Source: Microthyrium microscopicum (lineage: Eukaryota). Taken from it: a stretch of DNA of 64,000 nt. Position 1 is the stretch's first letter. Every line of letters begins with the position of its first letter. Shown piece by piece: positions 2,754 to 61,377 of the stretch. The notes beneath the pieces are model-generated. The model was not told the origin of the DNA, did not search any database, and saw only the letters and a list, made by a program, of their open reading frames with translations. The translations under genes and the position numbers were made by a program. The stretch lies in assembly GCA_010405405.1 (NCBI GenBank), contig MU004231.1:732153-796152 (forward strand). Reading direction: 5' to 3'.

Positions 2754-3393
2754 AGTAGCGAGAATCGGAGCGACGCAGTGAAGCTGGAGACGGGGCCATG
2801 GAACGTATTCGTATGAGGTATATAGCTGAGGGATATACCTTTGACAAAAGCAATGGAGGAGGCTGAAGGTCAGAAGGACAATGCGAGTTTTGAGTGGAGA
2901 AAGGAGTCAGAGCAAAAGACGAGTTGACAGACCAAGAATGGAGAGAGGGGGAAAGATTGAAAGTCACGATGTGGGAGAAGTGGGAGTTTGGTCATGGCAT
3001 GCTCAATCGTCGACAAGGACCCAATGTCGACCAACGATGACTGGCTAGACTGATATCTGGGGCGCATCGTGGTCAGCCTTGGCGTGGGCACGGATCATTC
3101 AAAACAGCCAAGACAGTTTGAGCTTGACAGCCCGCAAGCCTGAACATCTCCGCACTCAATCGGAACTTTTCGGCTGCCCAAAGTCTGGGGTTGATCTTTG
3201 AGATGCAGTTTATGCTGTTCTGATCTATCTTACTTTGACTCCAAAAGATGATTTGATTGACATGGTACGGAGGTCTATCTATTCGCTTGGCATAGCTTTC
3301 TCATTTGATTCCTCAGTTCACTTCCTGCTACCATGGATGTCTCCAAGTATAGCCACATAGTTCCCGATAAGAATGCCATCTGATAGTTCTGCC

Positions 3394-3604
3394 AACCGGT
3401 GGACAAAATAACTGGCGTGCCCCAATCAACTCCAATGGCTCCCACCAACGCTTCCAAATAGCAAATGCTAAAATACCCACCACAATCGATTGATAGTGAT
3501 GGAATAAACGTAGTCCTTGGGAAATAAAGCACTCGATAACAAAGCGTGGCAGATGGGAGCCATAGAAGTCGATGGGGGCACGCCAGTTATTTTGTCCTTC
3601 GGTT
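3394..3604. mobile_element. 211-bp foldback element/MITE with ~60-bp imperfect inverted arms and an 8-bp flanking direct repeat
   Basis: aaccggtggacaaaataactggcgtgcccc... (from 3394) is the reverse complement of ...ggggcacgccagttattttgtccttcggtt (to 3604). gttctgcc flanks both sides (3386-3393, 3605-3612). Confidence 0.75.
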
Positions 3605-6600
3605 GTTCTGCCTATTTTGCGTATTGAGTATAAAGACCGGCCTCCTTGATAGAGTATGCTTCAGGGCCATCTTTCATCTACCTCAGGATTAACCTGATCT
3701 ACCAGACAAACTCCGAGGAGTTCCGTTTCGACCACACGCGACACTACATGTATCGCTCTATCCCATGGTTTCATTGGTGATTACTTGCTCCTCTCCAATA
3801 TTGGTCTCGTGTCTTTCCCGAGGTCGCAACAACGTCTATTGCGAGCTTGGATATACAAGCAACGCATCTCCCGTACCTTTCTCGTCATCATCAACAAGTG
3901 ATCAGCTGCAGGGGCCATGATATCATTGAAGCTGCTATGATGGTGACTGATAGCCATGTCAGAATCACATCGTACACGTCTGCAAGTACTTGATGAATGT
4001 TACTTGGAATTGGAATCTTGGTAGACTCTTGGATGGTATCAATTGATACATTCCTGGCTATGCCTTGTTTTCTCTTTCAATCTCGCCCGCTGAAGCTTGG
4101 AAGCACTGTATGTACTCAACACCCCTGTTTATATATCGTGGTTGTTACTTTGCGGGGCCCACCTGGGCAAGAACTCCCTCAAAATTGGGAAAGAGCAAAC
4201 AGACCAGAAAGGACCCGTCAAGCTCGACTAAAGTGAGGATTAATTTACATACAAGGTGAGCTCGTAGCGTACTACAAATGGGCGTTTTCGATATACCCGT
4301 ACGCCAATCTGAGCAGCAGTCCTTCTCTTCAGATGTTGTGCACTACACTGCCCAAAATGTTAGACCATGAGTTATCTACGATCAACGAGGTGATGGACGC
4401 AGCGCACTTGCTATTCCTATTGATATAAAGTATTAGCCGCTATACTAGATAAGTAGCCTTGAATAGCACGACTTGGTACATAACTAAAACTTATAAGAAT
4501 TAAAAGGTTATTTTTGTGCTCTAATATGCATTGCGACATCGGCGTAGCATAATAATAGTAGAGCTTCATCATGATCTTGACAATCCCTGAACAAACCACC
4601 CAATGGAGTTGTCGAATAAACATGCGGCTTGATGGGCTTTGTAATATCTATGTCGCTCTACAGTAAAGTCCCAGAGGCTGCTAAAGTAGCCGTCTAGTGG
4701 TAGCATATCATGTCCCAAACTTACAGCTTGATAACTTCGCCAGAATACGAGGCTTCTACACGGGGCAAGTTCAATCCTACCCAAACACCTCCTAGTACGT
4801 CCCACGGCGGCTGAGTTACGTTAAGGCGAGTGATACACTCCCTATGCAGCGCGCATCAGCCAATAGTCGTACAAGATGGTTTCGCGTAGTTGCATGCTCT
4901 TTGTCCGCCGAGAGGTTGTTATGCTGTATGTTCCGCCGAGGGGGTTATTATGCTGTATCACGCAACCAGCAGGAACTGATTGCCAGAAAGAAAGAAAGAA
5001 ATCAGATGATATTGGCCAATTCTTATTGGCCAAAACCTACCACTGTCGATAATGTCGTTGCGGACGGTTGCACGGAGCCTGGTGTTGTGGGTGGGAATCG
5101 GATGGATTCATGGAATCTGGACGATGTTACTGCATGCTGGATTGAGAGGATTTTCTACACATGGTGTGATTGCGTATGCATACGCCCCGTTGCGATGTTG
5201 GGTTTTGTTGCTTCGGAAGGATTCTGGAAGCTTTTGCGCAGGTGTCAACGTGTTGTCTTCCCACGAGATGTCATTGGCGATCGCTTGGTAAATCCATCTG
5301 CAGCAAGTATTCAGAAGGAAGTTGATCGCCGCTCCGCAAGGTACCAATGATGAACTCCTATAAAGAAATGACGGACATGACGGGGGCAAGTGAAGAGAGG
5401 TTGAGTTTGGGATACGGCAGCATATTCCATTTGCCGTTGAACGCCGTGTTCAGCACACTTTGTGGCGCTATAGTAGTGACGGTATTGGAAAGCTGTTTGC
5501 GATCCGCCTCACGATCTTGAGACTTGAGCAAGTCCGGCGCTTATATCACTCATGGGCAGTTCTAAGCGAATTTGTGCTCCCCAACGCTGAGTGCAAAGGG
5601 AGAACGCATTCAGCAAGAGACACGAACGCGACGACATCGTGGTGTCCGCGCCTCGAAGAAAATGCTCGTTCACACCCCCCAGGCTGCGCGCTTGTTCAAA
5701 TCAATCACCCACTCACATTATCCAATCCAAGCGAGGAGCTGGCACATGGTTGCTCAACGTGAAACGGCTACACATCTGAAAGGTGAAGATAAACCCGATC
5801 GCATGGTTTGATAGTTTCGGTTGTGAAATTGGATTGACAGCACTATCCCAAATCCCACGAGGTTCCTCAAGGCGCGGCCCGTTGGTACTGTTTGCTGGGA
5901 TCCCACACAGCCAAGGCAGTATTGTAGGCGTGTGGTAATAATAAGCATGAGGAGAGTCAAGCATTGGTGTGAGACTGTGGCAGATATGACCCGCTAATCT
6001 AATGTGGCCCAAGAACCCCTGAGCGAGCTGGATTTAAATCATTTGAGGCCGTGATCCATGGCCCAAGAGTGACGGTTGGAATAAAGGGCGAGGAGGGCTT
6101 GGGCTGACGTGCATCATTTCAGATTATTGGAAACGGCAGAAGCAAAAGCAAGTCAAAGACTCTGAAGCAGTTCAAGATTCAAATGCAGGAAGCGTTTGAG
6201 AGCGGTACTGCGTCAACAAGTTCGCTTCTGCGTCAAGGAAGCGGATAATAGACGAAAGCGCGCGGTGAGCGCGAAATGTCGCTTGAAAGATTGAGTGGTG
6301 AATCCTTCTGCCGCTTTGATCCCTTTGTGCATGCAAAGGGAATGAGTTGGCCGCAATGCCCCAAATCCCTCACCGTAAACTTGTTAGATTATGCAGAATA
6401 TACATGCAATCAGGGATGCACCGCAGCAAATCTGTCCTTCTGACCATGGCACAATGTCTGCGCCAACGGCGGGCGAGCTGAGGAGTCGGGCCCGTTTGAC
6501 AATTGGACAGTCAATTGATTCCGCGGCAGGACTGCACCATAATTCGCGCCAGGCGGCCACGGCGGCAAGCAAGCGACACATAAAAAGAGGAAACTGGCGC

Positions 6601-14833: not shown

Positions 14834-15394
14834 GATCGTTATTAACCATCCACCCCAGAACCTTAGTTATCCACCTCTTGATATTATTTGTCCACCCTTT
14901 CTCACTAAAATAGTAACTATTCTCGCTAAATAGTAGCCTCATCACTCACTCGTTGAGGTCCAGAGGTCTTACTATAGGACCTTTACCAAACTATCTCTTT
15001 TAAAATATATCGAAAATAGATTTTAAGAAACGTGATAGTAGCTACTAAGAGAGTTAAGATAATGGCTTTTCTAGAATTTTGGAAGCTTCTAGGTAAAGCG
15101 AAAAATCCTTAAAAGAAGGCAAAGTAAAGTATATGTATAAGGGGGACAATTTAATAGCGTCCTCTCTTGATATATTAACCTATATTTGAATTTGCTATAA
15201 CTCCCTCAATATAAGTGATAAAAGAATTCCGAAAAAGCTAAATGGAAGAGCGTAATCTACTCTATAGTAGAATATTTTAAAATTATAGATAATTCTTATC
15301 TTGGAGCTTCAATGTAGAGTATAAAAATAGGGGTGGATGAATAAGATCAAGGGGTGGATAATTAAGATTTTGGGGTGGATGGTTAATAACGATC
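14834..15394. mobile_element. 561-bp non-autonomous Mutator-like MITE, AT/TpA-rich
   Basis: ~65-bp TIRs beginning gatcgttattaaccatccacccc, each with three tccacc(c) sub-repeats. Perfect 9-bp TSD atctctata (14825-14833, 15395-15403). Most TIR mismatches are transitions. Confidence 0.9.
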
Positions 15395-16598
15395 ATCTCT
15401 ATATTGCCGCCGCAGCATTGAGGCGAAGCAACATGCCCATTGGGTGGCGGACTTGGCAAAGATGCATACGAGCTGTACAAAGGGGTACTTCGAGTAGTTA
15501 AGGACCTTCCTGGAGCTGACCATATTGTGAGATCTCTAGCAAACACACCGTTGTCAGAAAGATCGACAACTTTTACCGCTATAAGGATAGTCACCCATTT
15601 TCACCAGCACTTCTCGACGCAAGCAACTGAGATCATGGGTCAGATTAGCTACTCACCATTGAGCGTTGAAAAGAAGGAGATCCGGCTATTGACTCTCTTT
15701 TCAAAACCTACCGTTATTGAGGACGCGCGCGATGCTGCAAACAAGGCCCTGGCAGATCTGAGCATCTCAGGCGAAAGTCACCCTGCGGACGGCTTCCAAA
15801 GCCAGGACGAGTCAAAGCCCTGCGGCGGGTCACTTACGATAGTTTCATTGAACGATAACCCCGAGTACGAAGCATTATCTTACGTATGGGGAGATGAGAA
15901 CCTGAAATCTACCTTCATTCTTGACGGCGTGGAGGTCAAAATCACCGAAAACCTTGCCGTTGCACTTCGACACCTGGAACCGACCGAAAAACCTCTAGTA
16001 CTGTGGATCGATGCGGTAGGTACTCTTACAACCGCTTTGGCGATGCGAGTGGAACATATATGCTGATTAATGGCACAGATATGTATAAATCAATCCGACA
16101 ACGTAGAGAAAAGCCATCAAGTCTCGCAGATGAAAGACATATATTCAGCCGCAACTTCCGTGACAGTATGGCTTGGTCCTTTCGCCGATGGCAGCGATTA
16201 TGTCATGTCCCAGTTTGAGAAGTTTGATGAGAAGTTTGACGTCTTTTCAGACTCTAATACAACTACCCTGGTTGGACTCGTGCGCCAGGCTATGGAAAGC
16301 GGCTTGACGACTCTAGAGCAAATCTGTTCACCCGTCGTCAAACAAACTGCCGCACAAATTGAGCAGTTGTTCAATCGTGAGTGGTGGTACCGTGTATGGG
16401 TGAGTAGAGTAGCCCTTGTACAAAGACTGTTTCTTCTAATATGTTTATTCTGACGAAGTCTAGGTTTTGCAGGAACTGGCCGTAGCGAAAGAGGTCGTTT
16501 TTGTGTGTGGTAACAAAAGAGTGAGTTTAGACAGACTTGAGCGCGCAGATGCCACGTTTGTCAACTTCATCTTCGCTCTGCTATTAAATGTGCATGAA

Positions 16599-16695
16599 GG
16601 GGGAGTAGTACAGTGGTAGTACTTGCGATCTCGCGGCAGGCCCTACCTGTTTGAGAATCCGCAGGGCACGGGTTCGATTCCCGTCTCCCCCACCA
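16599..16695 (+). ncRNA. tRNA-like cloverleaf head (internal Pol III promoter); isotype not assignable
   Basis: Acceptor stem GGGGGAG/CTCCCCC + A + CCA. D stem GTAC/GTAC with A box TAGTACAGTGG (16606-16616). T arm ACGGG-TTCGATT-CCCGT with B box at 16671-16681. Anticodon arm extended into a long hairpin. Confidence 0.85.
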
Positions 16696-17800
16696 CCCCA
16701 AAAAGGCAATCGTTACTCGCTTTTAAAGCCACGTTCACCCCTTTTTAGGGAAGGTTATCCTTCCCTTTTTAGCAGGTGTGGAGGACGAGCTACAGCTCTT
16801 TTTAACACGTCGCGGAAGGTGCAAATTTTTGTATCACGTGACCGCTGTATGCAGCCACAAGATCATCCTTGTCGAAGCCCCACCAACAATAACGGACTAG
16901 CGTCAAAAATCACATGATTGGAAACCAGCCACATGGCACGCAAAGCCACACACAAAAAGCCACAACATCGCCGAAGCGCAGCAAATTCGGCATGCCGAAG
17001 CCAATTCTTTTACGGCTCTTGGCAATTAGATCGGACGATCGGCCCTGGCTTAGTAAGACCGAAATCCCAGCCGCGTGAGGCAAGGATCGGACCGAACGAC
17101 ACGGCAGAAACTCACGGGATCTAGGGACACCACGGCTCGGTAAGTACGGTGCCCGCGGGTCGGCAATATGGCGCTATAGGAAAAGTCGGCAGACTCGGGG
17201 GAGGTGACCCAGAACACGCCGGTCCGAAGGACCCTAGATCTTGGCTTGAAAGCGAAGCACAGCGTAGATGGATAGCTCTTAGCAGACTGTTGGCGCTGCC
17301 TCGGACTTGGTATTGCGGCACGAATGGAGGGATCTGACATAATAATAAGGAAGGAATCTTGGCCCCTTGGGGGACGACAATATTGGCAACTTTAAAGAAC
17401 TTGAAGCAGTGGACTGAATGGAAGAACAATAATCCGTAACGGATACTGGCCTAGAGAGGTGCCGCGGTTGGATACTACTCGGAATTCGGCTCTCCTGACT
17501 TACCAATGCTTCTGTGGCTTGGGAAGCCGATGGGGCTTAGCATAGTATTAACGGCCTTGGCATGGATCGGCCTACGGAACACGATAGTGGGGTTTTCCCT
17601 TATATAGTTAGCGCCTCGGTTTGCTGAACATGTAGGGGTTAGCCGAAGCCGGACTAGGCCTTAGGCCTGGAGTGAGTTAGCTCGGCTAGATTCGGGTAGA
17701 TTGGCTGATTAGATAAGGGTTTTTACCCGCTTATTAAGAGTAGCGTCTGCATAGCCCATTAGCGTAGCTGAAAGACAATAAACAAGATTCAATAAAAAAA
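16599..17800 (+). mobile_element. tRNA-headed SINE-like non-LTR retroposon, 1202 bp
   Basis: 14-bp TSD taaatgtgcatgaa (16585-16598, 17801-17814). 5' tRNA-like head with A and B boxes. 3' end ...gacaataaacaagattcaataaaaaaa. Confidence 0.92.
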
Positions 17801-19332
17801 TAAATGTGCATGAACGAGGAGTCGCCTCTAGCAGGTCTATGCCGAAGCTCCCTTTCAATTATGCTGCTCGCAGGATGCTATTTCAAAGGCGTAAATACCA
17901 AAACAGACTAGAAGGTTACTCGAGTTGCACTTTAGGAGCCTTGCTGCAAGAGCTGTACGGGGTTGAGGAATGGACAAGCAGTCTACAGACATCTAGAGCT
18001 GTGGACAGGATCTACGGACTACTTGGTATAGCGCAAGATACAGAGGTACTAAACCTAGTTCCAGACTATTCGAGGGACACGGAGTGGGTATACACTGATG
18101 CTGCTGGTAAAATGCTGCAGCGCGGTGAGTTTGGGCTTCTTTCTCTGGCTCAACACGCAACACAACCATCGTTGTTACCCTCCTGGGTTCCGGATTGGCG
18201 TCTTCCTATGAAGGCACCCGTTGCCAAAAGATCTTTATCGCCAGTCTTTCGTCCATTTGGCAACATAGAAATCGTCTGCCCGTCTCCCCAACCAAACGAC
18301 TTCAGAGTACTCGAAATTGCCGGAACTGCCGTGGATGAGATTGAACAGGTAGGATTACCTCTCGGTTACAGTTACCAGCAAACCACGGCAGAAAACTTGC
18401 AGCATGTCCAATGTTATCTCTCTCAAATACAAGCCTTCTGTCGTCAATCTGCTTCATTAGCTACAGGCCTCTACGGCGACTCTGATAGATGGATGGAAGA
18501 TGCTTTCTGGCGAATACCTATTGGAGACTTGGCAAATCCGACCCCAGGCCAATACACTATGGTGAGAGCAACCGAGACAAGTTTCACCTACCACCAAAGT
18601 CTACTAAAGGTCATCGCGGTTTCGAATGAAGCTAAAGACAGCACTGTCGGAAACGAAGAGCCTACGAAGCTGGCTGCTGTTAGATCTGCCGAGTTCGGAA
18701 AGTACGAACAATATCTTTTTGGAGTTGTGAACAAAGCTGGACAAGCGCCATTCATAACCAAACGAGGCTACGTGGGTATTGGGCCGCCAAATATGGCCGC
18801 TGAAGACATTATTTGTATATTCTATGGAGCACACGTGCCGTACGTTCTTCGACCTGTGGAGGACGGGCGGTACACTCTTATCGGAGAGACCTATGTCTAT
18901 GGGATCATGGATGGCGAATTTATGATAGACAGTCCAAAGAAAGATATTTTTCTTGTTGTATGAGCTTCAGAAGTTGGTCTTAAAGTCTTAAATCGAGTCT
19001 TCAGAGTAGGAATGAACGGGATTAGATAGGTGACAAATACAATGGAACGAAGTAATCTGAGAAACACGCGAGTCATATATTGATCGTCAACCCTCAGTAT
19101 GTCATTACTACTGAATGAAGCATAGGTATGTAGTGGACCGTTAGTGCGGGAAGGAGTTTGGAACATTCTAAGCACAATCATGAAGCTTCCCCGCGCCATC
19201 AAGATGCTAAACACTTCAACTGTTGAACCTGAACCGTTCTCGACCTTTGGCATCAAAATCAACGGTGATGAGATATACGTTCCTACCAGCAACTAACCAC
19301 TTCACAAAAACCGAAGAAAGAGATAGGATACA

Positions 19333-39183: not shown

Positions 39184-40514
39184 TTATGGCAACATACTCC
39201 ATTTCTCCATCTGACTGCGGAAACCATATGGGTAGTAAAAACAATAGAAAATCAATTGATCTGTGGTTTGTTGAATACAAGAAGGCTCAATTTCAGGAGT
39301 GAGATGGTTATGTTGAAATGCTAATTTTAGAGTATTGTAACAACACAAAGTGAGTTCTTGACCTTTTTGAAATGTGCCAATTGTTGTTGCTTCAACCCAA
39401 AAGTCGTCAAAAAAGCTCCCATAAAGTCGCTGTTCCTGTGTCATCGTTGAGAAGAAGGGCTTTGGGTGAGAGCAGAGAAATTGACAAATGCCGCTAAGAA
39501 TTATCTTGAAGTTCGGATTTTCGTGGTAGCTGTGAGGGATAGCACCTCGAAGGATCTGTAGCATATTCTCAGGATCTAGGGCGAAGATGGCATCAGACAA
39601 GGGCTGGCTCATCTTGAAGCTTTTATAAGCCCGCTGGCTTAGCTGATGTAAGAACGACTGGACTTTGAGTAGAATGAAAACGATTGGCAAGTTTGATGGC
39701 CTTGGGAGTGATTGATAAGATAGATACATTAACGGACTTAGTGATGGCTGCGATCTTTGATGGAGACGTCGCTTGTTGTGGTTTGGCAAATAAGGTCGAG
39801 ATGTCGTTTGTGACCACACAAGCCTTCTCTGAACGAGCTGATCTAGGCTTGGGCTTCAGTTGAGAAGAGAGCCATTTTCCGCATTGCTTTCCAAAAAAAA
39901 CTCTTTGAGTAAGGTTGGTGATTCCAGTTGGCTTTGAGCCTAGTAGAGACTAATTGGAGGGTTTCCGTGAGCTTCTTTGAACGAATGAATTCATAATCAA
40001 AATCAAGTTTGTGCTGATGGTCCCCAGGGCGTCCTCCCTCAACGGCGATGACTCCCATAGACGCTCCCAGATAAAAGAGGCTGTATTTTATTGCCCACCA
40101 GAAGCGTTGGAGCTTCACATCTGTCAAGCTAAAATTTCCGATCGCGGTCAAGAACCCATCGTCTGTCTTCATAATGGGTGATGGCGGCCAGCAAGTGTGA
40201 TGGAGATTTGGCCCATTTCTTGTTATTACCCCTGAGTACCAAAACACTTGGAAATCCAACGTCAATAGAGAGCCTCTTAATCTTGAGCTTATCTTTCGGG
40301 AGCATACAAGAATGAATACGACCTGGCTTATAATATTCAAGAATTGCTTACCTGCAAATCCGGCTGTGTGCTCGCTTATAGCAAATGGTTCTAAGTAGCA
40401 GTCCACGGCAACTTGCATGGCGTAGGGTAAGTGCTCCAGAACGACATTAGCAATGTTGATATTATCATACTTACCTGAGTAGATATGATCAGTAGGATAG
40501 TCATCTCTGTACAT
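39184..40514 (-). other. One or two hypothetical/decaying orphan ORFs
   Basis: Tandem 223- and 211-codon ORFs with no recognisable motif. A possible intron lies near 40250-40320. Confidence 0.35.
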
Positions 40515-51290: not shown

Positions 51291-54200
51291 CCGTAGAAAT
51301 CCGACAACATGTCCGCAAGGTCGAGGGCGCTGGAGAGGCGTTTTTAGGGCGGTTTCTGTAGAAATGCCCCCTATAGTAATTTTGCAGTAATCTATTTTTA
51401 GAACGCTAAAAGCTATAATGGCGTTCCTATCCCTAAACCTACTGAACACCTAAAATTGAAGCTATATAATGATATCTTTATTAGTACAAAATAGTAAGAA
51501 TAGGAAGATGTAGTATTATATATAAGTAATGCTTTTAAAGCGTGTTTTTAATGCTAACATAGAGTAGATGTTATCTATGATTTCTATCGCTTATCTATAT
51601 TTGCTATAGGCTAAGAATACTGCCTAATTTAATGTCTAATCATTGATTTGAGTAGTCCTATTGATGATAGAATATCGCTATTAAATACTAAAGATAGATA
51701 TTTTGGCTAGGTCGTTTAATGAGATAGAGGTTAGATTGAAGAAGCCCTAGATGCTAGAATGCTAGTGTCGATATTAGTAATAAAGAGGTAGTTAGATACT
51801 AAATTTTAGTAGGATAGGACTCTTTATATCTACTAAGTAATCCGTTTTAGGGGAGGCTATTGGACGACTTAATTGCCTATTAATTTTAGTAAAAATAGTG
51901 GTAATACTGCTTAAAATCCTTTAGCGAGGGAACTTAGTAATTAGGCTAAGGGTTAGGCTGAGGGTTAGGCTAAGGGTCAGGGTATAGTAAGATAATTAGT
52001 AATAATACGGGTATTAGGTCGTTTATATATAGATTTTGCTATATATCTTCTATTAATTTAATGAAGGATAAATTTACTATAGCTTCATCTTCGTTAATAG
52101 GTAGAGGAATATAACCCTTAACTTCTTCTTTATTATAGTATTCCCTACTATTATTATTACTAATATCTTTAGCTTCAATATTAGGGTCGTTTATCTCTTC
52201 TTGCTCTTTATCTTTAACGGCACTAAGAATATTAATAGATTCTTGCTTCACTACACGCCAGTTCAAGAAGTCTAATAATAATATTAAATCTTTAATGCTA
52301 ATATTATTCTTCTTGTTTGTAATAACATTTTTAGGCATAGTATTCAACCCCGTAGTAATAAACGAGCGTCTAATTATTAGAGAGCTATTAAAGTAAATTT
52401 GTCGCTAGGCCTTTGTTATAACATAAGTTATAAATACTTAATATTAAGATATATTCTAATTAAGGGGGTCTAAATCTTTGATATTTATATCCTTAAAGCA
52501 CTCTTATGCATAGAATGTAGAGGCCTATAGGTCTTAAAGGTTCTTAACGAGTTATTTAAATAGCTTATTTACGCTAACATTAAGCAGTTAGATTTTAGAT
52601 GTATAACTAGGAGGAACGATAGTAATAACAATATTGTAGTCTTTATACCATTACTTAACGATAGCCGTTTTATAAGCAAAGAAGGCGTCTATAATAAGAA
52701 TAGAAGGATTGGAAATACATATTATAGATATTAAAGAAGTAGAAGATATTAAAGATATTAAAAAGGTGCAAGATATTAAAGAGGTGCTAGTAGGGCTTGA
52801 TTTTAGAAGAGATGTTATTAAATTAAGCTCTAGATCCCGTAGTTAGTGCTAAAATATTTCCATTTTAGGAAGGTACGAGAAAGGAATTACCTAAAGTAGA
52901 AGGAGACGGAACATCTTTAGACCGTTTAGACCCCTCTAAAGGCTCTTTAAGATTCTCTACCGCTATATCTAATCCTCTAAGATAATAATATTCTAACCAC
53001 TACTACATAATATCCTTATTATTCTACGCCATCTTATTGTATTTAATAAACACCTCCTAGTTATAGAACGTACCCTTAGTCTTTAAGATACGACCTTTAT
53101 CTTTATTAGTAGTACTATAGAAGATAATTAGTAGTGAGATTTAAAGCGTGCCATTAGCTGTTATTACTAACATGACCGTTATTTAACGTTTATCATCTCT
53201 ATCTTTATAAGTATAAATCAAAACCGTCTTTAACCCTACATTTACTAAAGTATAATCGCTAAAGTTATAAAAAAGCATTAGCGTCTCGTCTATATTAACA
53301 ATTTGATAGGCAGACACTATAGCTTTTAATTCTTCATCTAATACTGTATTAATATTTACTTAAAGACTACTAGCTAGCGCTATGGCCTTATAGGTCACAA
53401 GTTTTATAAATCTAATAAGATTGCTACATTAAGAAACTTATTCTTTAGGCAGTTTCTAAGCTACGTAGGTTACCTTTCTTCGCACAATCCTAAAGCGCTT
53501 TAGGTAGTTTTAAAGCTAGCCCTATAAGAATTAATAAATCGCTAGTATCTCTTAAGCCTTAATTTTAGCAATATAAATATAAGGGTACAACGCCTTAGCT
53601 TTCTAAAGCAATTAATAAGTACCTATAGACCTATTCTTAGCTCGCTATTCATAGTACTATACATAAACGGCATCTTTAAGTCTAGGAAAGTGCTCCCTCT
53701 ATATATCTAGACGCTCAACTCGACGGCTTACATGCAAAATTAACCATAATAACTAGCGCTAATGCCACCACCATCATACAGTTCTCTTATTTAACGCGTA
53801 GTATTAAGTAGCTTTAATAGCTATACCAGTACACTACTATTAATTAGTATCCAGACATTTATACTATTTTATGCCCTCTAATAGTAAGTATCACTATTCA
53901 TTAGGGGATAGCATATAACGCTATTATAGTATCTACGCTACTACTTCTATTTATAGTTAAACTAAAGCGGTGTTAAACAACTTAGATTTAGGAGCGATAG
54001 TAACGACCTTCTAAAGATTAAATCCCTTACTCTTTTTAGCATGTAGTTTTGCCCTTAAAGGACGTAGATAATTTATCCCTATAACATTTAAGTCTAGTTT
54101 AGCTAATAACGCTCATTATAATTAGCGTGCTTCTTTTAGTGCCTTTAGCATAGTTATAAATATCGATTTTGATGTTTTTTAATTAGATTAAGTCAAGATA

Positions 54201-54539: not shown

Positions 54540-56715
54540 TAACTTCTGGTTCATCCTGACACTCTACTGGTTAGCGTTCCGTCGTGGTCCGCCAGGACAC
54601 CAGCCAAGATGTGAGAGCCAAAGCTGGGCGAGCGACTACTCTCAGGGCATCTCGATTGTCTGATTTGATCTCGCTCATGATTTCATGTGCAAAATAACGG
54701 GCTTGTGAACCTGTAAAGGTCCAAGGAGAGAACGAGGACCAAAATTGCTGCTGAGACCACGGGAAGCCATTGGCGCTGTGCTGTGCGATCCATGCTTGGC
54801 CATGTCAGACAGGCGTCAAGTTGCAGACGTCCTTGTCATCCTACCGAAAACTTCTGTTGAAACGCAACATGCTAGCGTGCCTATTTGGGTCGCGGTCCCA
54901 CTAAATTTAGCGGGCGCTGCCCCTGTTGGTGATCATTTGTCCCTTTTGAATCACCTGAAGGTAATTGGCTCGAAAGGAGTTTCCCTTAAGCCTCTATCCG
55001 CTTTTACAAGGATTAATGAATAAGTTAATACGGTAAGTAATCCACATTTAGAAGAGAATTATCCCTGTTAACACCCTTCCTGACCCCTTTTGCCCCATCT
55101 AGCGCAAGCCCAAAAGCCTTCTCTAATCCAAATAGGCACGCTAGCATGTTGCGTTTCAACAGAAGTTTTCGGTACGCCTGAAGTCTGCTTGCGCAGCTCT
55201 GCATCATCCATTCAGAAGCGATACATCCAACGTCCAGGCAGTTTAGGTGATTCCCCCTTTGATTGCGTAAGTGACTATAGCGTGTTTGAGGAATCAATTG
55301 ATCCCCAAGGACGCGCAGCATAAATATTTGTTTTGCTGAATGAATCTGAGCCGCTGAGAAGCTTCTCAAAATAATAGTGAAAGTCTAGAGAACTGGTCGC
55401 ATAGAGTTAGTGGACCAAAAAAGCCGGAAAACAGATGTGAGAGCACAAATTCCGCGTTCCTGGAATTGGTTCCGAGTTGCTTGATAATAACAGCGACGAC
55501 GTAAGACGAAGAAAGACCTTGCGCCAAACATGATTCAAACTAGAGCCAGGGACCGGACTTGTAGCTCAAACTTTACTTGAGCGTTTTCGCTGTCAGTGCC
55601 ATTGCTCACAACTGGCCAAAGCATGCATACGAGTGATAACTAGAGCAGATATCATATGCATAGCAGGCATAGAGATCAAGGCACCCTTCGCGATACACGC
55701 AAAAGTTTGCAAACAACGAGCAGAATAACGAGGGATGCTGCATTGTAACTCGTACCCATCACAAGAAGCTAGGATGTTCCAATTATAGTTACCATGCTTT
55801 TCTCCTTGGCCCCAGTGGCCCCTTCCAGAATGGTGGGAGGCCGCTTCAAACCACCAGAATGGGACTGTCAATGCTGTGAAATTCTCGACCTCCCTGCTTC
55901 GATTAGAGTGTGTGCTCAGATGTGTAACCGATAGCTTCAACACTACCTAAGTAGCTTTGCTGCGGCTCCGTCTTCGCCATTCCAACGGGAACCCTGCAGC
56001 GTGGGAGTACTTGTAGGTATGGCATTTGTTATCACCAATTCGTCACTAGTAGTTGAGCGAACATAATTGATGTTACTCTGGGAATCTCGCGATCCGAATT
56101 GCCCGAGCCAGGAACTTAAGTCGTTTCTAAAGAGTCAAATGTTACCGTAAGTTGTGAAGTGATGACGGCATCACGGTGGAACGATTGAGGCTTGAGCCAA
56201 TGGCCGAGAGCCGCCGTACGAGGCTGAAAGACACGACGTTCGCGTGCGAGAGAGCTGGAGGCTAGTAGCATCGACATGTTAGTGTAGTTGAGGCGCGCGA
56301 AGCATGAACTACTGCGTCAAAATAGCATACGCCGACAAGATAATGACGAACACCACAGCTCGTGGCCTCGACTGGCGGGCAAAGTAACGGAACGGAGATG
56401 ATGTTGCTAATTCGTGGGATTGGCGTTGCTGGCGTTGAAAGGTACTTCAGCGTTTCCAAGCAGTTCCAAGCAGTCCAAGGCTCGTTATGTGTGCCAGCTG
56501 GTGGCATGGATTTGATGTGCAAATCGGTCGGGCGGCACACAAAGTTGATGAGCGCGTTCCGACCAGGTTCCGAGATAACATGGATCAATGATGAGAGAAG
56601 GGAAGGATAAGCCAAAAGGGAAATAGCAAAAGGCTAAAGACACAGAGCGCGAGCCTTGTTGGGGTGTTTGACTATCCAGAGTACGTGGTAGTGCCTGTTG
56701 GCTGGATTTGTAGTT

Positions 56716-58950: not shown

Positions 58951-61377
58951 ATGGTCACAGATTTGCGCGTCAGACCCACCTTGGAGTCTGATGCGTATCT
59001 GACTCCAAAAGTATTCGGCAAAGTCTGCGCGTCGGTACGGTTTCTTTCAAAGGCGTTTAAGGTTGTTTCATGGGAGCATTACAAAAAGCTGCAGGAAATG
59101 GGACTGGTCGATAGATTTGATATGGTTCGGATACCATACGGCGTAATCTGGGCATGGGAGCAGAATTCTGTTCGGTGACGAGGGAACACGAACGTGAGGT
59201 GCATGCATTTATTATAATGCTGGTATGCATAGGCGGAGTTCTCCAAGGATGCTATATTTTTTGGCCCAGCAGGCCTTATTCAGAACTGAACATATGCCAC
59301 CGGCGCAAAGAGGGAAATGGAAAGTTCACACATAATCGATGAATTGGTCGGACACCAGTCCTATGGACCATTAGACATTAGCCCTTAACGCGTGAGAGGA
59401 TTCAATACTTCCTCTGCAGATACATTAATACGAAACAACACGACCAGCAACGAAATGCCCAATTCCCAGATCAAAACATGAATGAAAAGTTCAACATTGA
59501 AATTCGATTCTATCACGTGTCTTCCTCTGCTCAAATGACGATGGTGCCCGTTAACCTTTGGCTATAAAATTACAGGACTCTTTGGACCGTGGTCAAGAGG
59601 CTTTTGTCATCTTTGTTTTGACTTCTGAAGTAAAAGTGGCTTCCAAGGCTTCTACGGGGCTAGCTGCGTACGCATCTACGAATCATCAACACCCGCTGGC
59701 CAGTGGGATCCTTTTCAACCCCTGCTATCTGATCGACAATCTGCCCATGGATTCTTCTGCAGACTGCAGCAAACACGTCTCGCAACACGTTATCCGGCCT
59801 TGAAAAATGATACAGGTATTTGAAGATCGGTAACAACTTTGATTCTTCCTCTTAGCGGCCATCAACAATCTCATACAACGTCCAATAATCCGCCAATCCC
59901 AAATCAGTATTTGATTTTCCTTCACGATTCGATCTTCATTCCTTTTCCGCCCCAACATCTCGCTGAACTTTTGATGCATGGCCCCGGTCACAGCCGGCGT
60001 TCTTCGATGTGGCTTGTCAACACACGAGCTCAACATCAAGCATTGAACTGCTGGCTTGCATAAAAGCTGCCAGGCACGCGGGTGACAAAATTAGCGAGAC
60101 TCGAAAATCTAACTCGCAGCTTTTATATAATATAGAACAACCATTTCATGTCTGTTGGACTCCAAAATTATGTCTATATGTAGATAATATCTTCTTCTTT
60201 AACCTGCGAAATTTTGTTTAGATAAAATAAAGAAATGAGCTTGTAGTGAAGGATAGTCATAGAGAAAGTATGTTTTAGCGTTTATCGCTTAATATCTTAA
60301 CAACGAATCTACTGATTATTCTCAAATTTTAACAGCTTATTTATACGGCTCCTTTATAAGCCCGACATAAATTTCGAGCGATAAAGTCTATTATTGAAGG
60401 CGTGATGGTAGAAAGTATCTCTTCAGAGCCTTTTTGGAGTCTCGCTAATATTGTCACCCGCGTGCCAGGGTACCCGGAAGCTAATCGTCCATGCACAGCC
60501 AAGAAAAGCTCAACAAGAGAGAGAAAAAAATCTCCGACAAGTCTAGTCCGTAATGGGAGCACTTCAGCGCCGCCTTTTTTGCGAGGCTAGGATTTCAAAT
60601 CGTTCAGAATCGGAGCCGCGTAGAGTGGGCTTGCACAACAAGGCGGGTTTTCAGCCTCGTCGTGTTCATCGGTTTGTTTAAAAGTTGGGCGTTGCACATG
60701 CCGTCAAGCCGGTGGTTCCTTCCGTCGGAAAGTCAGGGTAGGTTTTGGTATATTTGGAGTGGTTTGAGTGATCCTTTGAAGTCAGGTTAGGCCAGAGTTG
60801 TGCGCCATGGGTGTTCTTGGGAGAGATTGCTTTGCGGCCAGGAGGATGTTGTTGGTCATGAATGATATGATGGCTTTGTCTCGGTTCCGAGATCTAAAGT
60901 TGGTTGATGTTCGATGTACGAGATGCGCTGATATGCGGTCGTTCCACTTGTCATTCGTTAAAGTGCCAACCTGCAAAATTTCCTGATAGCTTAACCTCAT
61001 GGATTTTCTTAGACGCTGTTAAGGACTCAAGGCTGTCTGCTCTCGGTTTCCATGTCGATAAGGTTTGGGTATCTATATTCAACGAAGCGTCAGACACTAA
61101 TATAGACTTGGTAGCTTCAACTCACGACGGCACAAGATGAGTTTCAGCGAAGCATATTGATATTGTTAATGCTATGATTATTCCTCCCGTTCATTGTAAG
61201 CAATAAGGATGTTCCAATGCACTCTCCTCTGATAAAAGTCCTTTGCCGCGGTCGTTAACCTCCTTGTATACATAGTAATTAAGGGATGAGTCATGCGCCC
61301 AACTTTCGTTCCGTCCTTCAACAAGTTCGCTTCTCCAACACCGCCGACAAAATAGGGAATCCCCCAAGCCGCGTCGT

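What the first reader, a model, noticed from the sequence alone, without database searches (positions are those of the whole stretch)
16599..16695. tRNA mimic with intact acceptor, D and T arms, encoded CCA and a long hairpin instead of an anticodon loop
Seen: perfect 7-bp acceptor stem followed by ACCA, perfect D and T stems. The anticodon arm becomes tgcgatctc-gc-ggcagg-cccta-cctgtt-t-gagaatccgca, with no U33-anticodon geometry. Known: eukaryotic nuclear tRNA genes do not encode CCA, SINE heads usually lose pairing, and RNase P/RNase Z read the acceptor-T arm, not the anticodon. Inference: the fold itself may be selected, for example so that RNase P cuts the exact 5' end of the element out of a longer transcript. 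A 3' CCA is also known to hinder RNase Z, which could keep head and body joined.
Basis: partly seen in the sequence, partly recalled or inferred. Interest (0 to 1): 0.75.

Follow-up and report, generated by a model that had tools for sequence, protein, structure and literature searches.

The report
tRNA-shaped head of fungal retroposon
The tRNA look-alike is real, but it is the front end of a 1.2-kb jumping element that recently landed inside a fungal self-recognition (HET) gene, and it looks like a DNA copy of an unfinished tRNA that still carries its intron and its added CCA tail.

Summary
Bases 16599-16695 fold as a tRNA: acceptor stem 7/7, D stem 4/4, T stem 5/5, all core landmark bases present, then A and CCA. 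Rfam scores it 52.5 bits. A 40-nt hairpin replaces the anticodon arm.

It is not a free-standing gene. It is the first 97 nt of a 1,202-bp non-coding element (16599-17800). The element ends in two AATAAA motifs and an A7 tail and is flanked by an exact 14-bp target duplication. It sits in an exon of an otherwise open HET-domain gene.

Public-run contigs show a multi-copy family with RIP-like decay. At least 5-6 other copies begin within a base of tRNA position 1. One 5'-truncated copy has its own 14-bp duplication. This is LINE-type retroposition.

The hairpin holds 23 extra nt exactly at the canonical intron site (37/38). Together with the CCA, this matches an end-matured, unspliced pre-tRNA, probably captured by reverse-transcriptase template switching.

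Four T5 runs just behind the head, the AATAAA signals and a spliced HET-to-element RNA contig favour Pol II read-through RNA. No copies could be fetched, so covariation was not tested.

This is a new variant of a tRNA-headed retroposon, of moderate interest.

The parts
16585..16598 (+). Left copy of the 14-bp target-site duplication TAAATGTGCATGAA. It is the end of a HET gene exon (codons ..L N V H E).
   Evidence: It matches 17801-17814 exactly.
16599..16695 (+). tRNA-derived head: full cloverleaf core, 40-nt anticodon-arm hairpin, discriminator A and encoded CCA.
   Evidence: Rfam RF00005 52.5 bits; ARAGORN; fold z = -3.07; landmark bases.
16606..16616 (+). Box A-like Pol III promoter element (TAGTACAGTGG).
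   Evidence: Read. It differs at one place from the recalled box A consensus. Function was not tested.
16624..16663 (+). Extended anticodon-arm hairpin. Outer stem UGCG/CGCA; bulged A on the 5' side and a 3-nt bulge AUC on the 3' side; 5-bp helix UCUCG/UGAGA; bulged C; 6-bp helix GGCAGG/CCUGUU; loop CCCUA.
16635..16657 (+). Putative 23-nt tRNA intron at the canonical 37/38 site. Its 3' part pairs with loop positions 32-36. The 3' junction lies in the 3-nt bulge and the 5' junction lies next to the bulged C.
   Evidence: The Rfam alignment has 32 nt where the model has 9; fold. Calling it an intron is inference.
16671..16681 (+). Box B Pol III promoter element (GGTTCGATTCC).
   Evidence: Read. 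It matches the recalled consensus at all specified places. Function was not tested.
16693..16695 (+). Encoded CCA directly after discriminator A16692. It forms the junction between head and body.
   Evidence: The 26-nt T-arm-to-CCA string has no exact match in the prokaryote genome collection or the viral collection.
16696..16835 (+). Structured trailer with a cluster of T runs: T4 at 16721, T5 at 16742, 16766, 16799 and 16826. The hairpin 16747-16766 runs into the T5 at 16766.
   Evidence: Four or more T5 runs in 140 nt occurred in 0 of 20,000 shuffles and in 3 of 6,386 140-nt windows of the 64 kb. Fold z = -3.02.
16696..17776 (+). Non-coding body of the element.
   Evidence: None of 7 stop-to-stop ORFs scanned reaches a Pfam cut-off. 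Two ORF translations found no relatives. Rfam found nothing but the tRNA, apart from one chance-level hit.
17777..17800 (+). 3' end: AATAAA at 17777 and 17791, and an A7 tail at 17794-17800.
   Evidence: Other copies end at 17792-17803 (loose ends).
17801..17814 (+). Right copy of the 14-bp target-site duplication.
15422..18963 (+). Host HET-domain gene interrupted by the element. Exon sequence runs from at least 15422 to 16014, then 16078-16398 and 16463-16598, and resumes at 17815-18963.
   Evidence: PF06985 HET, E = 4.2e-08. Both introns are skipped (GT..AG) in an RNA contig of run X4. Leaving out the element and one TSD copy gives one open frame of 732 codons; with the element in place a stop comes 6 codons into the head.

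Best explanation
The 97 nt are the 5' head of a 1,202-bp, non-coding, A-tailed non-LTR retroposon (16599-17800). A LINE-type (target-primed) reverse transcriptase moves this element, and this copy recently inserted in sense orientation into an exon of a HET-domain gene.

The head is most simply a DNA copy of an end-matured but still unspliced pre-tRNA. Its 5' end is at tRNA position 1. A 23-nt intron at 37/38 pairs with the anticodon loop. The post-transcriptional CCA is present. In yeasts this RNA species is the one exported to the cytoplasm.

I infer that a LINE reverse transcriptase, copying the body RNA from its poly(A) end, jumped onto the 3' end of such a pre-tRNA. The chimera then became a master copy.

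How it works now is also inferred. The intact acceptor/T-arm core makes the head a substrate for RNase P. The element's 5' end can therefore be regenerated at position 1 from any longer transcript. Full-length RNA probably comes from Pol II read-through ending at the element's own AATAAA signals. The CCA would keep tRNase Z from cutting the head off the body. The box A/B promoter probably gives only short Pol III transcripts that stop in the T5 cluster.

My sub-odds are:
- retroposon head: about 0.95
- CCA-bearing (pre-)tRNA retro-copy: about 0.7
- the hairpin is a true intron remnant: about 0.5
- RNase P defines the 5' end: about 0.4
For: Shown:
- An exact 14-bp TSD, an A7 tail and two AATAAA motifs.
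- The host frame is open over 732 codons once the element and one TSD copy are left out.
- The family is multi-copy. In run X1, 131 contigs were laid, of which 108 are under 99% alike. Summed depth in the element is 281-1858 against 111-114 in the flanks and is highest at the 3' end.
- Of the 249 differing places in X1, 184 are C>T or G>A. All 13 listed C>T rows lie in CpA (8) or CpG (5).
- Five X1 contigs have unlike, AT-rich sequence up to 16598 and one up to 16600, so other copies start at the same place.
- A copy truncated at 17615 and ending at 17792 is flanked on both sides by the same 14 letters (loose-end consensus).
- The tRNA core is complete and exactly 23 nt are extra at the anticodon loop.
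- A spliced RNA contig of run X4 (1,399 nt, both HET introns removed) runs on through the head to 17035 with 0 differences.
- The T5 cluster is far beyond chance.
- No ribozyme or other RNA family lies in 16400-17950.

From papers:
- LINE template-switch chimeras with 14-bp direct repeats exist in a filamentous fungus (PMC2104539 abstract).
- SINE heads can be acquired by template switching (PMC5729268 passages).
Against: - Removing the 23 nt at 37/38 leaves the loop UCUCGCU, with C33 and C37, and a mismatched 31-39 pair. No functional tRNA reads like that, so either the head has drifted or the insert was never an intron.
- No source tRNA gene was found. The isotype is unresolved: the 5' half is identical over 23 nt to a prokaryotic tRNA-Trp and the 3' half is closest to prokaryotic tRNA-Gly.
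- The origin of the body and the partner LINE are unknown.
- The only RNA contig across 16599 is uncut, and contigs cannot show RNA ends.
- Five of six other-copy contigs align from 16598, one base before G1. The flanks are about 60% A, so this may be chance (about 0.08). If real, it would mean a start at -1, which RNase P would not leave. The TSD here allows a start at 16597-16599.
- T5 runs are leaky Pol III terminators in yeasts (recalled), so Pol III is not excluded.
- Conservation of the head among copies is only hinted at. None of the 40 best-supported differences lies in 16599-16698, but 248 further rows were not shown.
Confidence: 0.6

Rival explanations
1. Classical Pol III SINE. The head matters only as an internal box A/B promoter. 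Pol III starts at or one base before tRNA position 1 and leaks through the T runs to make the full-length RNA. The CCA and the hairpin are neutral leftovers.
For: - Boxes A and B are intact.
- There is a TSD, an A tail, multiple copies and 5' truncation.
- Five of six other-copy contigs align from 16598, which would fit a purine start at -1.
- Fungal tRNA-headed SINEs of 0.4-0.9 kb are in print. One of them, AfuSINE2-1a, has a long insert in the anticodon region, a 14-bp TSD and a Tad1/I-type LINE tail (PMC5063351, introduction passages and section 14).
Against: - Four T5 runs and one T4 run lie within 135 nt of the head, one of them behind a strong hairpin. Three more T runs lie further on.
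- The 1,202-bp length is beyond the usual SINE range.
- Two AATAAA motifs sit right before the A tail.
- A Pol II read-through transcript is seen.
Confidence: 0.3
2. The head is a selected tRNA mimic, not an intron-bearing pre-tRNA copy. The hairpin replaces the anticodon arm because only the acceptor/T-arm core is needed. RNase P cuts the element out of longer transcripts, and the CCA is kept by selection to block RNase Z.
For: - No register gives a canonical anticodon loop.
- All stems are perfect in a family that otherwise shows heavy RIP-like decay.
- None of the 40 best-supported differences among copies lies in the head, although the head holds 17 CpA/TpG/CpG sites. The next 111 nt hold 12 such sites and 5 listed changes.
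- Read-through RNA exists.
- tRNA-like elements that set RNA ends through RNase P and RNase Z are known: MALAT1 and plant mitochondrial t-elements (PMC8457004, PMC1920247, abstracts in the listing).
Against: - The insert is exactly at 37/38, is of ordinary intron length (23 nt) and pairs with the anticodon loop as pre-tRNA introns do. This is what an unselected copy would look like.
- RIP is expected to fade at the edge of a repeat, which may explain a cleaner head.
- The difference table was cut: 248 rows were not shown.
- No covariation could be counted and no processed end was seen.
Confidence: 0.2
3. Relic without present function. A template-switch chimera amplified briefly. The family is now dying under RIP, and this copy is merely one of the youngest.
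For: - Most contigs are 80-95% alike, with a RIP-like spectrum.
- Only one copy lies in 64 kb.
- No coding capacity was found.
Against: - This insertion has a perfect TSD in an otherwise open host gene.
- At least two sequence variants of the element are present in RNA contigs of run X4 (contigs 10 and 12 with 0 differences; contigs 11 and 13 with 15 and 39).
- Repeated copies with the same 5' end need a way to regenerate that end.
Confidence: 0.2
4. Okada-type origin. The head is the primer tRNA still joined to minus-strand strong-stop DNA of an LTR retroelement, which would also explain a CCA at the head-body junction. (The model is recalled, not read here.)
For: CCA lies directly at the junction.
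Against: - A primer tRNA would be spliced, whereas here 23 extra nt remain.
- The body does not begin as the complement of an LTR end would.
- No complementary primer-binding site occurs in the window. The only other match to the last 18 nt is on the same strand, inside the HET exon.
- The A tail, the AATAAA motifs and the 14-bp TSD point to LINE machinery.
Confidence: 0.03
5. An ordinary, functional intron-containing nuclear tRNA gene.
For: The Rfam score is high and the core is complete.
Against: - The CCA is encoded.
- No canonical anticodon loop can form.
- It lies inside a TSD-flanked, A-tailed, multi-copy unit in a protein-coding exon.
Confidence: 0.01

Closest known systems
Fungal tRNA-derived SINEs (Mg-SINE, Foxy, Blumeria SINEs, and AfuSINE2-1a of Aspergillus fumigatus; PMC5063351, introduction passages and section 14 read)
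   Same: All share a tRNA-related head with A and B boxes, a non-coding body, target-site duplications (14 bp in AfuSINE2-1a), low copy numbers and dependence on a Tad1/I-type LINE. AfuSINE2-1a also has a long insert in the anticodon region of its head.
   Different: - This element is 1,202 bp; the paper lists 140-900 bp for fungal SINEs.
- The head here folds as a complete cloverleaf, whereas the paper says none of the AfuSINE2 heads does.
- CCA directly follows the discriminator.
- A cluster of T5 runs follows the head.
- AATAAA motifs and an A tail end the element.
- By eye there is no sequence relation to AfuSINE2-1a beyond the generic T arm.
LINE template-switch chimeric retrocopies (U6/L1 in mammals; WEIRD/Mg-SINE/MGL chimeras of Magnaporthe, PMC2104539 abstract; SINE head swap in pittas, PMC5729268 passages)
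   Same: A complete small RNA, from its own 5' end to its processed 3' end, is fused to the 3' part of another RNA inside one TSD. In the Magnaporthe tripartite case the TSD is also 14 bp.
   Different: Here the chimera has become a family with a fixed junction. The small RNA would be an unspliced, CCA-tailed pre-tRNA, for which I found no paper. In mammals, tRNA/L1 chimeras are mostly half tRNAs in antisense orientation (10.1101/2025.02.02.635956 passages).
HDV-like ribozymes at the 5' end of non-LTR retrotransposons (L1Tc/NARTc; R2 and RTE recalled; PMC3185411 passages, PMC4035085 abstract)
   Same: Functional analogy only: a structured 5' module that frees the element's exact 5' end from a host co-transcript.
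   Different: No ribozyme is present (Rfam scan). Cleavage would be done by the host's RNase P and has not been shown.
tRNA-like processing signals in long RNAs (MALAT1 mascRNA, PMC8457004; plant mitochondrial t-elements, PMC1920247; abstracts only)
   Same: An acceptor/T-arm mimic lacking a working anticodon arm is read by RNase P, and RNase Z is also involved, to set RNA ends.
   Different: In those cases the tRNA-like piece is cut off and released on both sides. Here the encoded CCA would keep it attached as the 5' end of the functional RNA.
End-matured, intron-containing pre-tRNA of yeasts (PMC5390780 and PMC4090602, passages)
   Same: Mature 5' end, CCA added, and an intron at 37/38 that pairs with the anticodon loop, with the 3' splice site in a 3-nt bulge.
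   Different: This is DNA inside a retroposon. The loop left after removing the 23 nt is not canonical (C33, C37) and the 31-39 pair is A-C.

Membership tests
tRNA gene (Rfam RF00005) | Cloverleaf core with conserved tertiary bases | tested here: met
   52.5 bits over the full model. Acceptor 7/7, D 4/4, T 5/5, and the landmark bases U8, A14, G18, G19, G53, U54, U55, C56, A58 and C61 are present.
tRNA gene (Rfam RF00005) | 7-nt anticodon loop with U33 and a purine at 37 after intron removal | tested here: not met
   The canonical register leaves UCUCGCU. ARAGORN reports 'tRNA-???' with a 2-nt anticodon.
tRNA gene (Rfam RF00005) | Eukaryotic nuclear gene: CCA not encoded, stand-alone Pol III unit | tested here: not met
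   The CCA is encoded at 16693-16695. The unit is the first 97 nt of a TSD-flanked 1,202-bp insertion in an exon.
tRNA-derived SINE (SINE2) | tRNA-related head with box A and box B | tested here: met
   16606-16616 and 16671-16681. The consensus is recalled.
tRNA-derived SINE (SINE2) | Non-coding, non-autonomous | tested here: met
   No Pfam family reaches its cut-off in 7 ORFs. Two ORF translations found no relatives.
tRNA-derived SINE (SINE2) | Target-site duplication and an A-rich or LINE-like 3' end | tested here: met
   14-bp exact TSD and A7 tail. A second, truncated copy has its own 14-bp duplication.
tRNA-derived SINE (SINE2) | Interspersed multi-copy family | tested here: met
   131 contigs were laid in X1, with unlike flanks and summed depth 2.5-16 times the flank depth. 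Exact copy number is not known.
tRNA-derived SINE (SINE2) | Short (about 80-600 bp) and transcribed end to end by Pol III | tested here: not met
   The element is 1,202 bp. Five T4/T5 runs lie within 135 nt behind the head and three more further on. Transcription itself was not assayed.
tRNA-derived SINE (SINE2) | 3' tail shared with a partner LINE | not testable with these tools
   No host genome is held and there is no LINE in the window.
LINE template-switch chimeric retrocopy | 5' part is a whole small RNA including its post-transcriptional 3' end | tested here: met
   It starts at tRNA position 1 (give or take one base) and ends in CCA.
LINE template-switch chimeric retrocopy | 3' part is a 5'-truncated LINE or mRNA with a poly(A) end, inside the same TSD | tested here: inconclusive
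   The A tail, AATAAA motifs and single TSD are met. The source of the body is unknown.
Retrotransposon 5' self-cleaving ribozyme module (HDV-like, hammerhead) | Ribozyme fold at the 5' end | tested here: not met
   Rfam E-value scan of 16400-17950 gave only tRNA and one chance-level sRNA hit.
RNase P-read tRNA-like end-forming element (mascRNA / t-element type) | Cleavage by RNase P immediately 5' of the acceptor stem in vivo | not testable with these tools
   Only contigs were available and they cannot show RNA ends. The one contig across 16599 is uncut.

The most novel reading that the evidence does not exclude
A fungal non-LTR retroposon family may carry a 'CCA-locked' pre-tRNA mimic as a host-operated 5'-end cassette. 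The element has no Pol II promoter of its own. When it lands in a transcribed gene, as here in a HET gene, RNase P cuts the read-through RNA exactly at the head's first base. The encoded CCA stops tRNase Z from severing head from body. The T5 cluster aborts Pol III transcripts. The element's own AATAAA signals set the 3' end. This would be a protein-enzyme counterpart of the HDV-like ribozymes of R2 and L1Tc. It would also be genomic evidence that LINE reverse transcriptases can copy unspliced, CCA-tailed cytoplasmic pre-tRNAs.
Probability: 0.2. Interest if true: 0.75.

Novelty: new variant of a known kind. Interest (0 to 1): 0.45.

Why it matters
If the reading holds, this head is a genomic fossil of an RNA species (5'-matured, CCA-tailed, unspliced pre-tRNA) that is expected in the cytoplasm only where tRNA splicing is cytoplasmic, as in yeasts. 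That would extend the yeast pathway to a filamentous fungus. It would also show that LINE enzymes can copy that RNA.

It offers a testable case of a retroposon whose 5' end is set by a host tRNA-processing enzyme instead of a promoter or a ribozyme, and of an encoded CCA used as a guard against RNase Z.

Locally, the insertion truncates an otherwise intact, expressed HET-domain (heterokaryon incompatibility) gene. It therefore marks recent transposon activity that alters a self/non-self recognition gene.

Tried and rejected
- **Whole genome of the window:** none is held. Host tRNA genes, further copies and the partner LINE therefore could not be searched.
- **Other copies in the window:** blastn of the element against the 64 kb found only itself and two hits of 24 nt or less. 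Comparisons with C/T or G/A collapsed gave only low-complexity noise.
- **Metagenome scan:** I used a D-arm plus box B pattern. Of the 80 loci listed, 79 hold intron-less matches. ARAGORN on 21 of the 121 loci called the matched genes tRNA-Pro, Trp, Gly or Asp. One locus, L012, holds an unrelated intron-bearing tRNA-like gene. blastn of the element against all 121 loci gave 5 hits of 21-48 nt, all within tRNA parts. This produced no copies, and the pattern proved too generic to name the source tRNA.
- **Exact 26-nt T-arm-to-CCA string:** 0 matches in prokaryote genomes, 0 in viral contigs and 0 in the paper library.
- **Spurious-ORF route to other copies:** two protein searches with element ORFs found nothing.
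- **Earlier notes of this scan:** nothing by place, by sequence or for three word queries. The unrelated notes returned were not used.
- **Protein atlas for taxonomy:** it confirmed only a eukaryotic serine carboxypeptidase.
- **Sequencing runs:** no RNA holder is listed on record. I treated run X4, labelled 'RNA?', as RNA only because its contig skips both GT..AG introns.
- **Run X6 (another organism label):** it covers only parts of the element (9 of 30 bins) and none of the flanks. I draw no conclusion from the uncovered parts.
- **Joints 16631>16708 and 16805>16957 in one DNA contig each:** these are variant or diverged copies and could not be interpreted.
- **Alternative anticodon registers:** CGC with a bulged C in the stem; CUC with no base 26 and a 3-nt variable loop; and a resemblance of the stem to a recalled yeast tRNA-Asn arm. 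Each needs two or more indels, so I rejected all three.
- **Isotype:** the 71-nt architecture (7-nt D loop, 4-nt variable loop, discriminator A) recalls eukaryotic tRNA-Gly. That is recall only, and no NCC anticodon sits in a usable place.
- **Literature:** searches for an RNase P-processed retroposon head and for a retro-copied intron-plus-CCA pre-tRNA found no such report. Subscription journals, including the original Foxy, Mg-SINE and Okada-group papers, are not in the library.
Full report

Yes. Bases 16599-16695 read as a tRNA.
- The acceptor stem has 7 of 7 Watson-Crick pairs (16599-16605 with 16685-16691).
- The D stem is 4 bp (GUAC/GUAC) around the loop AGUGGUA.
- The T stem is 5 bp around the loop UUCGAUU.
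- The variable loop is 4 nt, followed by discriminator A16692 and CCA at 16693-16695.
- All the usual tertiary landmark bases are present.

Rfam's tRNA model matches end to end at 52.5 bits (gathering score 29, E = 2.1e-08 for the window). The only irregularity is 32 nt where the model has 9, which means 23 extra nt in the anticodon loop. ARAGORN finds the same span, cannot name an anticodon, and finds no other tRNA in the 64 kb.

The 97 nt fold at -42.8 kcal/mol with z = -3.07. The 40-nt arm alone folds at -16.1 kcal/mol with z = -2.78. The arm consists of:
- an outer stem UGCG/CGCA;
- a bulged A opposite a 3-nt bulge AUC;
- a 5-bp helix UCUCG/UGAGA;
- a bulged C;
- a 6-bp helix GGCAGG/CCUGUU;
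- a 5-nt loop.

**2. What surrounds it**

The window is fungal.
- The + strand around the finding encodes a HET (heterokaryon incompatibility) domain protein (PF06985, E = 4.2e-08).
- It has short GT..AG introns.
- The mutation spectrum among repeats is RIP-like (see section 3).

The tRNA-like piece is the first 97 nt of an insertion.
- The 14 bases TAAATGTGCATGAA at 16585-16598 recur exactly at 17801-17814.
- The stretch between them is 1,202 bp long. It ends in AATAAA (17777), AATAAA (17791) and A7 (17794-17800).
- If the 1,202 bp and one copy of the 14 bases are left out, the HET exons join into one open frame of 732 codons.
- With the element in place the frame stops six codons into the head.

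The insertion is therefore recent relative to the decay of the host gene.

The body has no coding signal. None of 7 ORFs reaches a Pfam cut-off. Two ORF translations have no relatives. An Rfam scan at E-value threshold finds nothing in 16400-17950 but the tRNA and one chance-level hit.

**3. It is a family that moves like a LINE-dependent retroposon**

The window holds only this copy. Contigs of public runs that hold the locus show many more.

*Copy number.*
- In DNA run X1, 131 contigs lie on 15400-19000. 23 are at least 99% alike, 15 are 95-99%, 50 are 90-95% and 43 are under 90%.
- The summed depth is 111-114 in both flanks and 281-1858 inside the element.
- Depth is highest in the last 120 nt, as expected if many copies are 5'-truncated.
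- Depth summed over contigs is only a rough guide to copy number.

*Mutation spectrum.*
- Of the 249 differing places in X1, 95 are C>T and 89 are G>A.
- All 13 C>T rows that were listed lie in CpA (8) or CpG (5).
- 10 of the 11 listed G>A rows lie in TpG (7) or CpG (3).

*5' ends.* Five X1 contigs carry unlike, AT-rich sequence up to 16598 and one up to 16600. Run X5 shows the same five, but it is the same sample.

*A truncated copy.* One contig begins to match at 17615 and another stops matching at 17792. The unlike sequence next to both ends contains the same 14 letters. This is a 5'-truncated copy with its own target duplication.

Taken together, these features are the hallmarks of target-primed reverse transcription by a LINE: an exact 5' end shared by full-length copies, 5' truncation, A-rich 3' ends at 17792-17803, and 14-bp duplications at AT-rich targets.

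**4. What the head is**

The extra 23 nt sit exactly where eukaryotic tRNA introns sit.
- With the stem register used by Rfam, position 37 is the bulged C16634 and position 38 is U16658.
- The 'intron' is therefore 16635-16657.
- Its 3' part pairs with loop positions 32-36.
- Its 3' junction lies in the 3-nt bulge.

This is the anticodon-intron helix and bulged 3' splice site described for eukaryotic pre-tRNAs (PMC4090602, passages).

Add a 5' end at position 1 and a CCA that no eukaryotic nuclear gene encodes, and the head has the form of an end-matured, unspliced pre-tRNA. In yeast this species receives CCA in the nucleus, is exported, and is spliced in the cytoplasm (PMC5390780 and PMC4090602, passages).

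A reverse transcriptase that copies an RNA from its poly(A) end and then jumps to the 3' end of a small RNA produces exactly this arrangement: a whole small RNA, from its processed 3' end back to its 5' end, fused upstream of the first template inside one TSD. Such chimeras are documented.
- One in a filamentous fungus has 14-bp repeats (PMC2104539, abstract).
- Head acquisition by template switching has been proposed for SINE birth (PMC5729268, passages).

I therefore read the CCA and the hairpin as inherited from the template RNA. One event explains the +1 start, the CCA and the hairpin together.

Weak points of this reading:
- Removing the 23 nt leaves UCUCGCU, with C33, C37 and an A-C pair at 31-39. 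That is not a working anticodon loop.
- Other registers need two or more indels.
- I could not find the source tRNA. The host genome is not held, and the metagenome scan returned only generic prokaryote-type tRNAs.
- The isotype stays open. A resemblance in architecture to 71-nt tRNA-Gly is recall only.

**5. How it probably works now**

Shown:
- Boxes A and B are intact.
- Directly behind the head lie T4 at 16721 and T5 at 16742, 16766, 16799 and 16826.
- Four T5 runs in 140 nt occurred in 0 of 20,000 shuffles and in only 3 of 6,386 windows of the 64 kb.
- One T5 run closes a strong hairpin (16747-16766).
- The element ends in two AATAAA motifs and an A tail.
- In run X4 a 1,399-nt contig lacks both HET introns (joints 16014>16078 and 16398>16463, GT..AG). 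It continues without a single difference through the head to 17035.
- Further X4 contigs cover 17006-17732 in two sequence variants.

So Pol II transcripts that run into and through the head exist, and at least two variants of the element are represented in RNA.

Inferred:
- Pol III starting at the head would mostly stop within about 235 nt.
- The 1.2-kb RNA that is reverse-transcribed is therefore more likely a Pol II read-through product polyadenylated at the element's own signals.
- For every new copy to begin at tRNA position 1 regardless of the upstream gene, something must trim the 5' end.
- An intact acceptor/T-arm core is the substrate of RNase P.

I rate it at about 0.4 as the way the 5' end is set.

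Points against it:
- The one RNA contig across 16599 is uncut, and contigs cannot show ends.
- Five of six other-copy contigs align from 16598, one base before G1. With flanks of about 60% A this may be chance (about 0.08). If real, it points to initiation at -1.
- T5 runs leak in yeasts (recalled).

A classical Pol III SINE mechanism therefore keeps about 0.3.

**6. Is the fold selected?**

I cannot tell. No copy sequences could be fetched, so no covariation was counted.

None of the 40 best-supported differences among copies lies in 16599-16698, although the head holds 17 CpA/TpG/CpG sites. The next 111 nt hold 12 such sites and 5 listed changes.

However, 248 rows were not shown, and RIP is expected to fade at the edge of a repeat. 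A review notes that SINE RNAs have apparently lost the cloverleaf (PMC3858429, passage). An intact cloverleaf is therefore unusual, but youth explains it as well as selection does.

**7. Comparison with what is known**

*Closest relatives.* These are the fungal tRNA-headed SINEs (PMC5063351, introduction passages and section 14 read). AfuSINE2-1a of Aspergillus fumigatus shares a 14-bp TSD, a LINE-type tail and a long insert in the anticodon region. This element differs in five ways:
- its length is 1,202 bp;
- it has a perfect cloverleaf;
- CCA follows the discriminator directly;
- a T5 cluster follows the head;
- it ends in AATAAA and an A tail.

It meets most SINE criteria but fails 'short and Pol III-transcribed throughout'.

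*By origin.* It matches LINE template-switch chimeras.

*By possible function.* It resembles two known systems, with a host enzyme in place of a ribozyme and a CCA lock in place of release:
- the HDV-like ribozymes that free L1Tc-type elements from co-transcripts (PMC3185411, passages);
- the tRNA-like end-forming signals of MALAT1 and plant mitochondrial t-elements (abstracts).

*Not found in print.* My searches found no report of a retroposon head copied from an intron-plus-CCA pre-tRNA, or of RNase P-defined retroposon 5' ends. The exact 26-nt string was also absent from the library. The library lacks most subscription-journal papers, including the original Foxy, Mg-SINE and Okada-group work.

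**8. Verdict**

- The object is the head of a LINE-mobilised retroposon, not a free tRNA mimic.
- The CCA and the hairpin are best explained by descent from an end-matured, unspliced pre-tRNA.
- The RNase P / CCA-lock mechanism is plausible, fits several features of the sequence, and is untested.
- It is a new variant of a known kind. Interest 0.45.

Noticed in passing
window 18277-18294 (+): A 16-of-18 match to the head's last 18 nt (T stem through CCA) lies on the same strand inside the downstream HET exon, about 480 nt past the insertion. About 0.06 such matches are expected by chance in the window. It is probably coincidence.
   Followed up: no
window 17615-17792, seen through contigs of runs X1 and X4: There is a 5'-truncated copy of the element elsewhere in the genome. 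The unlike sequences next to both of its ends share the same 14 letters, which is its own target-site duplication. It also appears in the RNA-like run.
   Followed up: partly
window 14834-15394; 3393-3605; 54842-55174; 60070-60469: Four pairs of inverted repeats (38-64 nt arms, 88-100% complementary, 109-433 nt apart) look like MITE-type small DNA transposons. One sits just upstream of the HET gene. The arms at 3393-3605 have related sequences at 40035 and 44598.
   Followed up: no
window 52001-54000: This AT-rich block has GC 0.305 against about 0.47-0.50 elsewhere and contains short AT-rich direct repeats. It may be a RIP-degraded repeat relic.
   Followed up: no
window 17682-17710: A 10-nt unit (TCGGCTAGAT) is repeated 3.1 times in the 3' part of the element. 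This region has the highest summed depth among copies.
   Followed up: no
window 16636-16956, contig 23 of run X6: A run under a different organism label holds a piece of the element that differs at only 2 of 321 places, covering the 3' half of the hairpin, the T arm and the CCA. The family therefore occurs nearly unchanged beyond the source sample.
   Followed up: no
L012 1501-1580 (-): A metagenome contig carries a eukaryote-looking tRNA-like gene with a long insert after a GCC anticodon and a T run behind it. ARAGORN does not call it. It is unrelated to the element.
   Followed up: no
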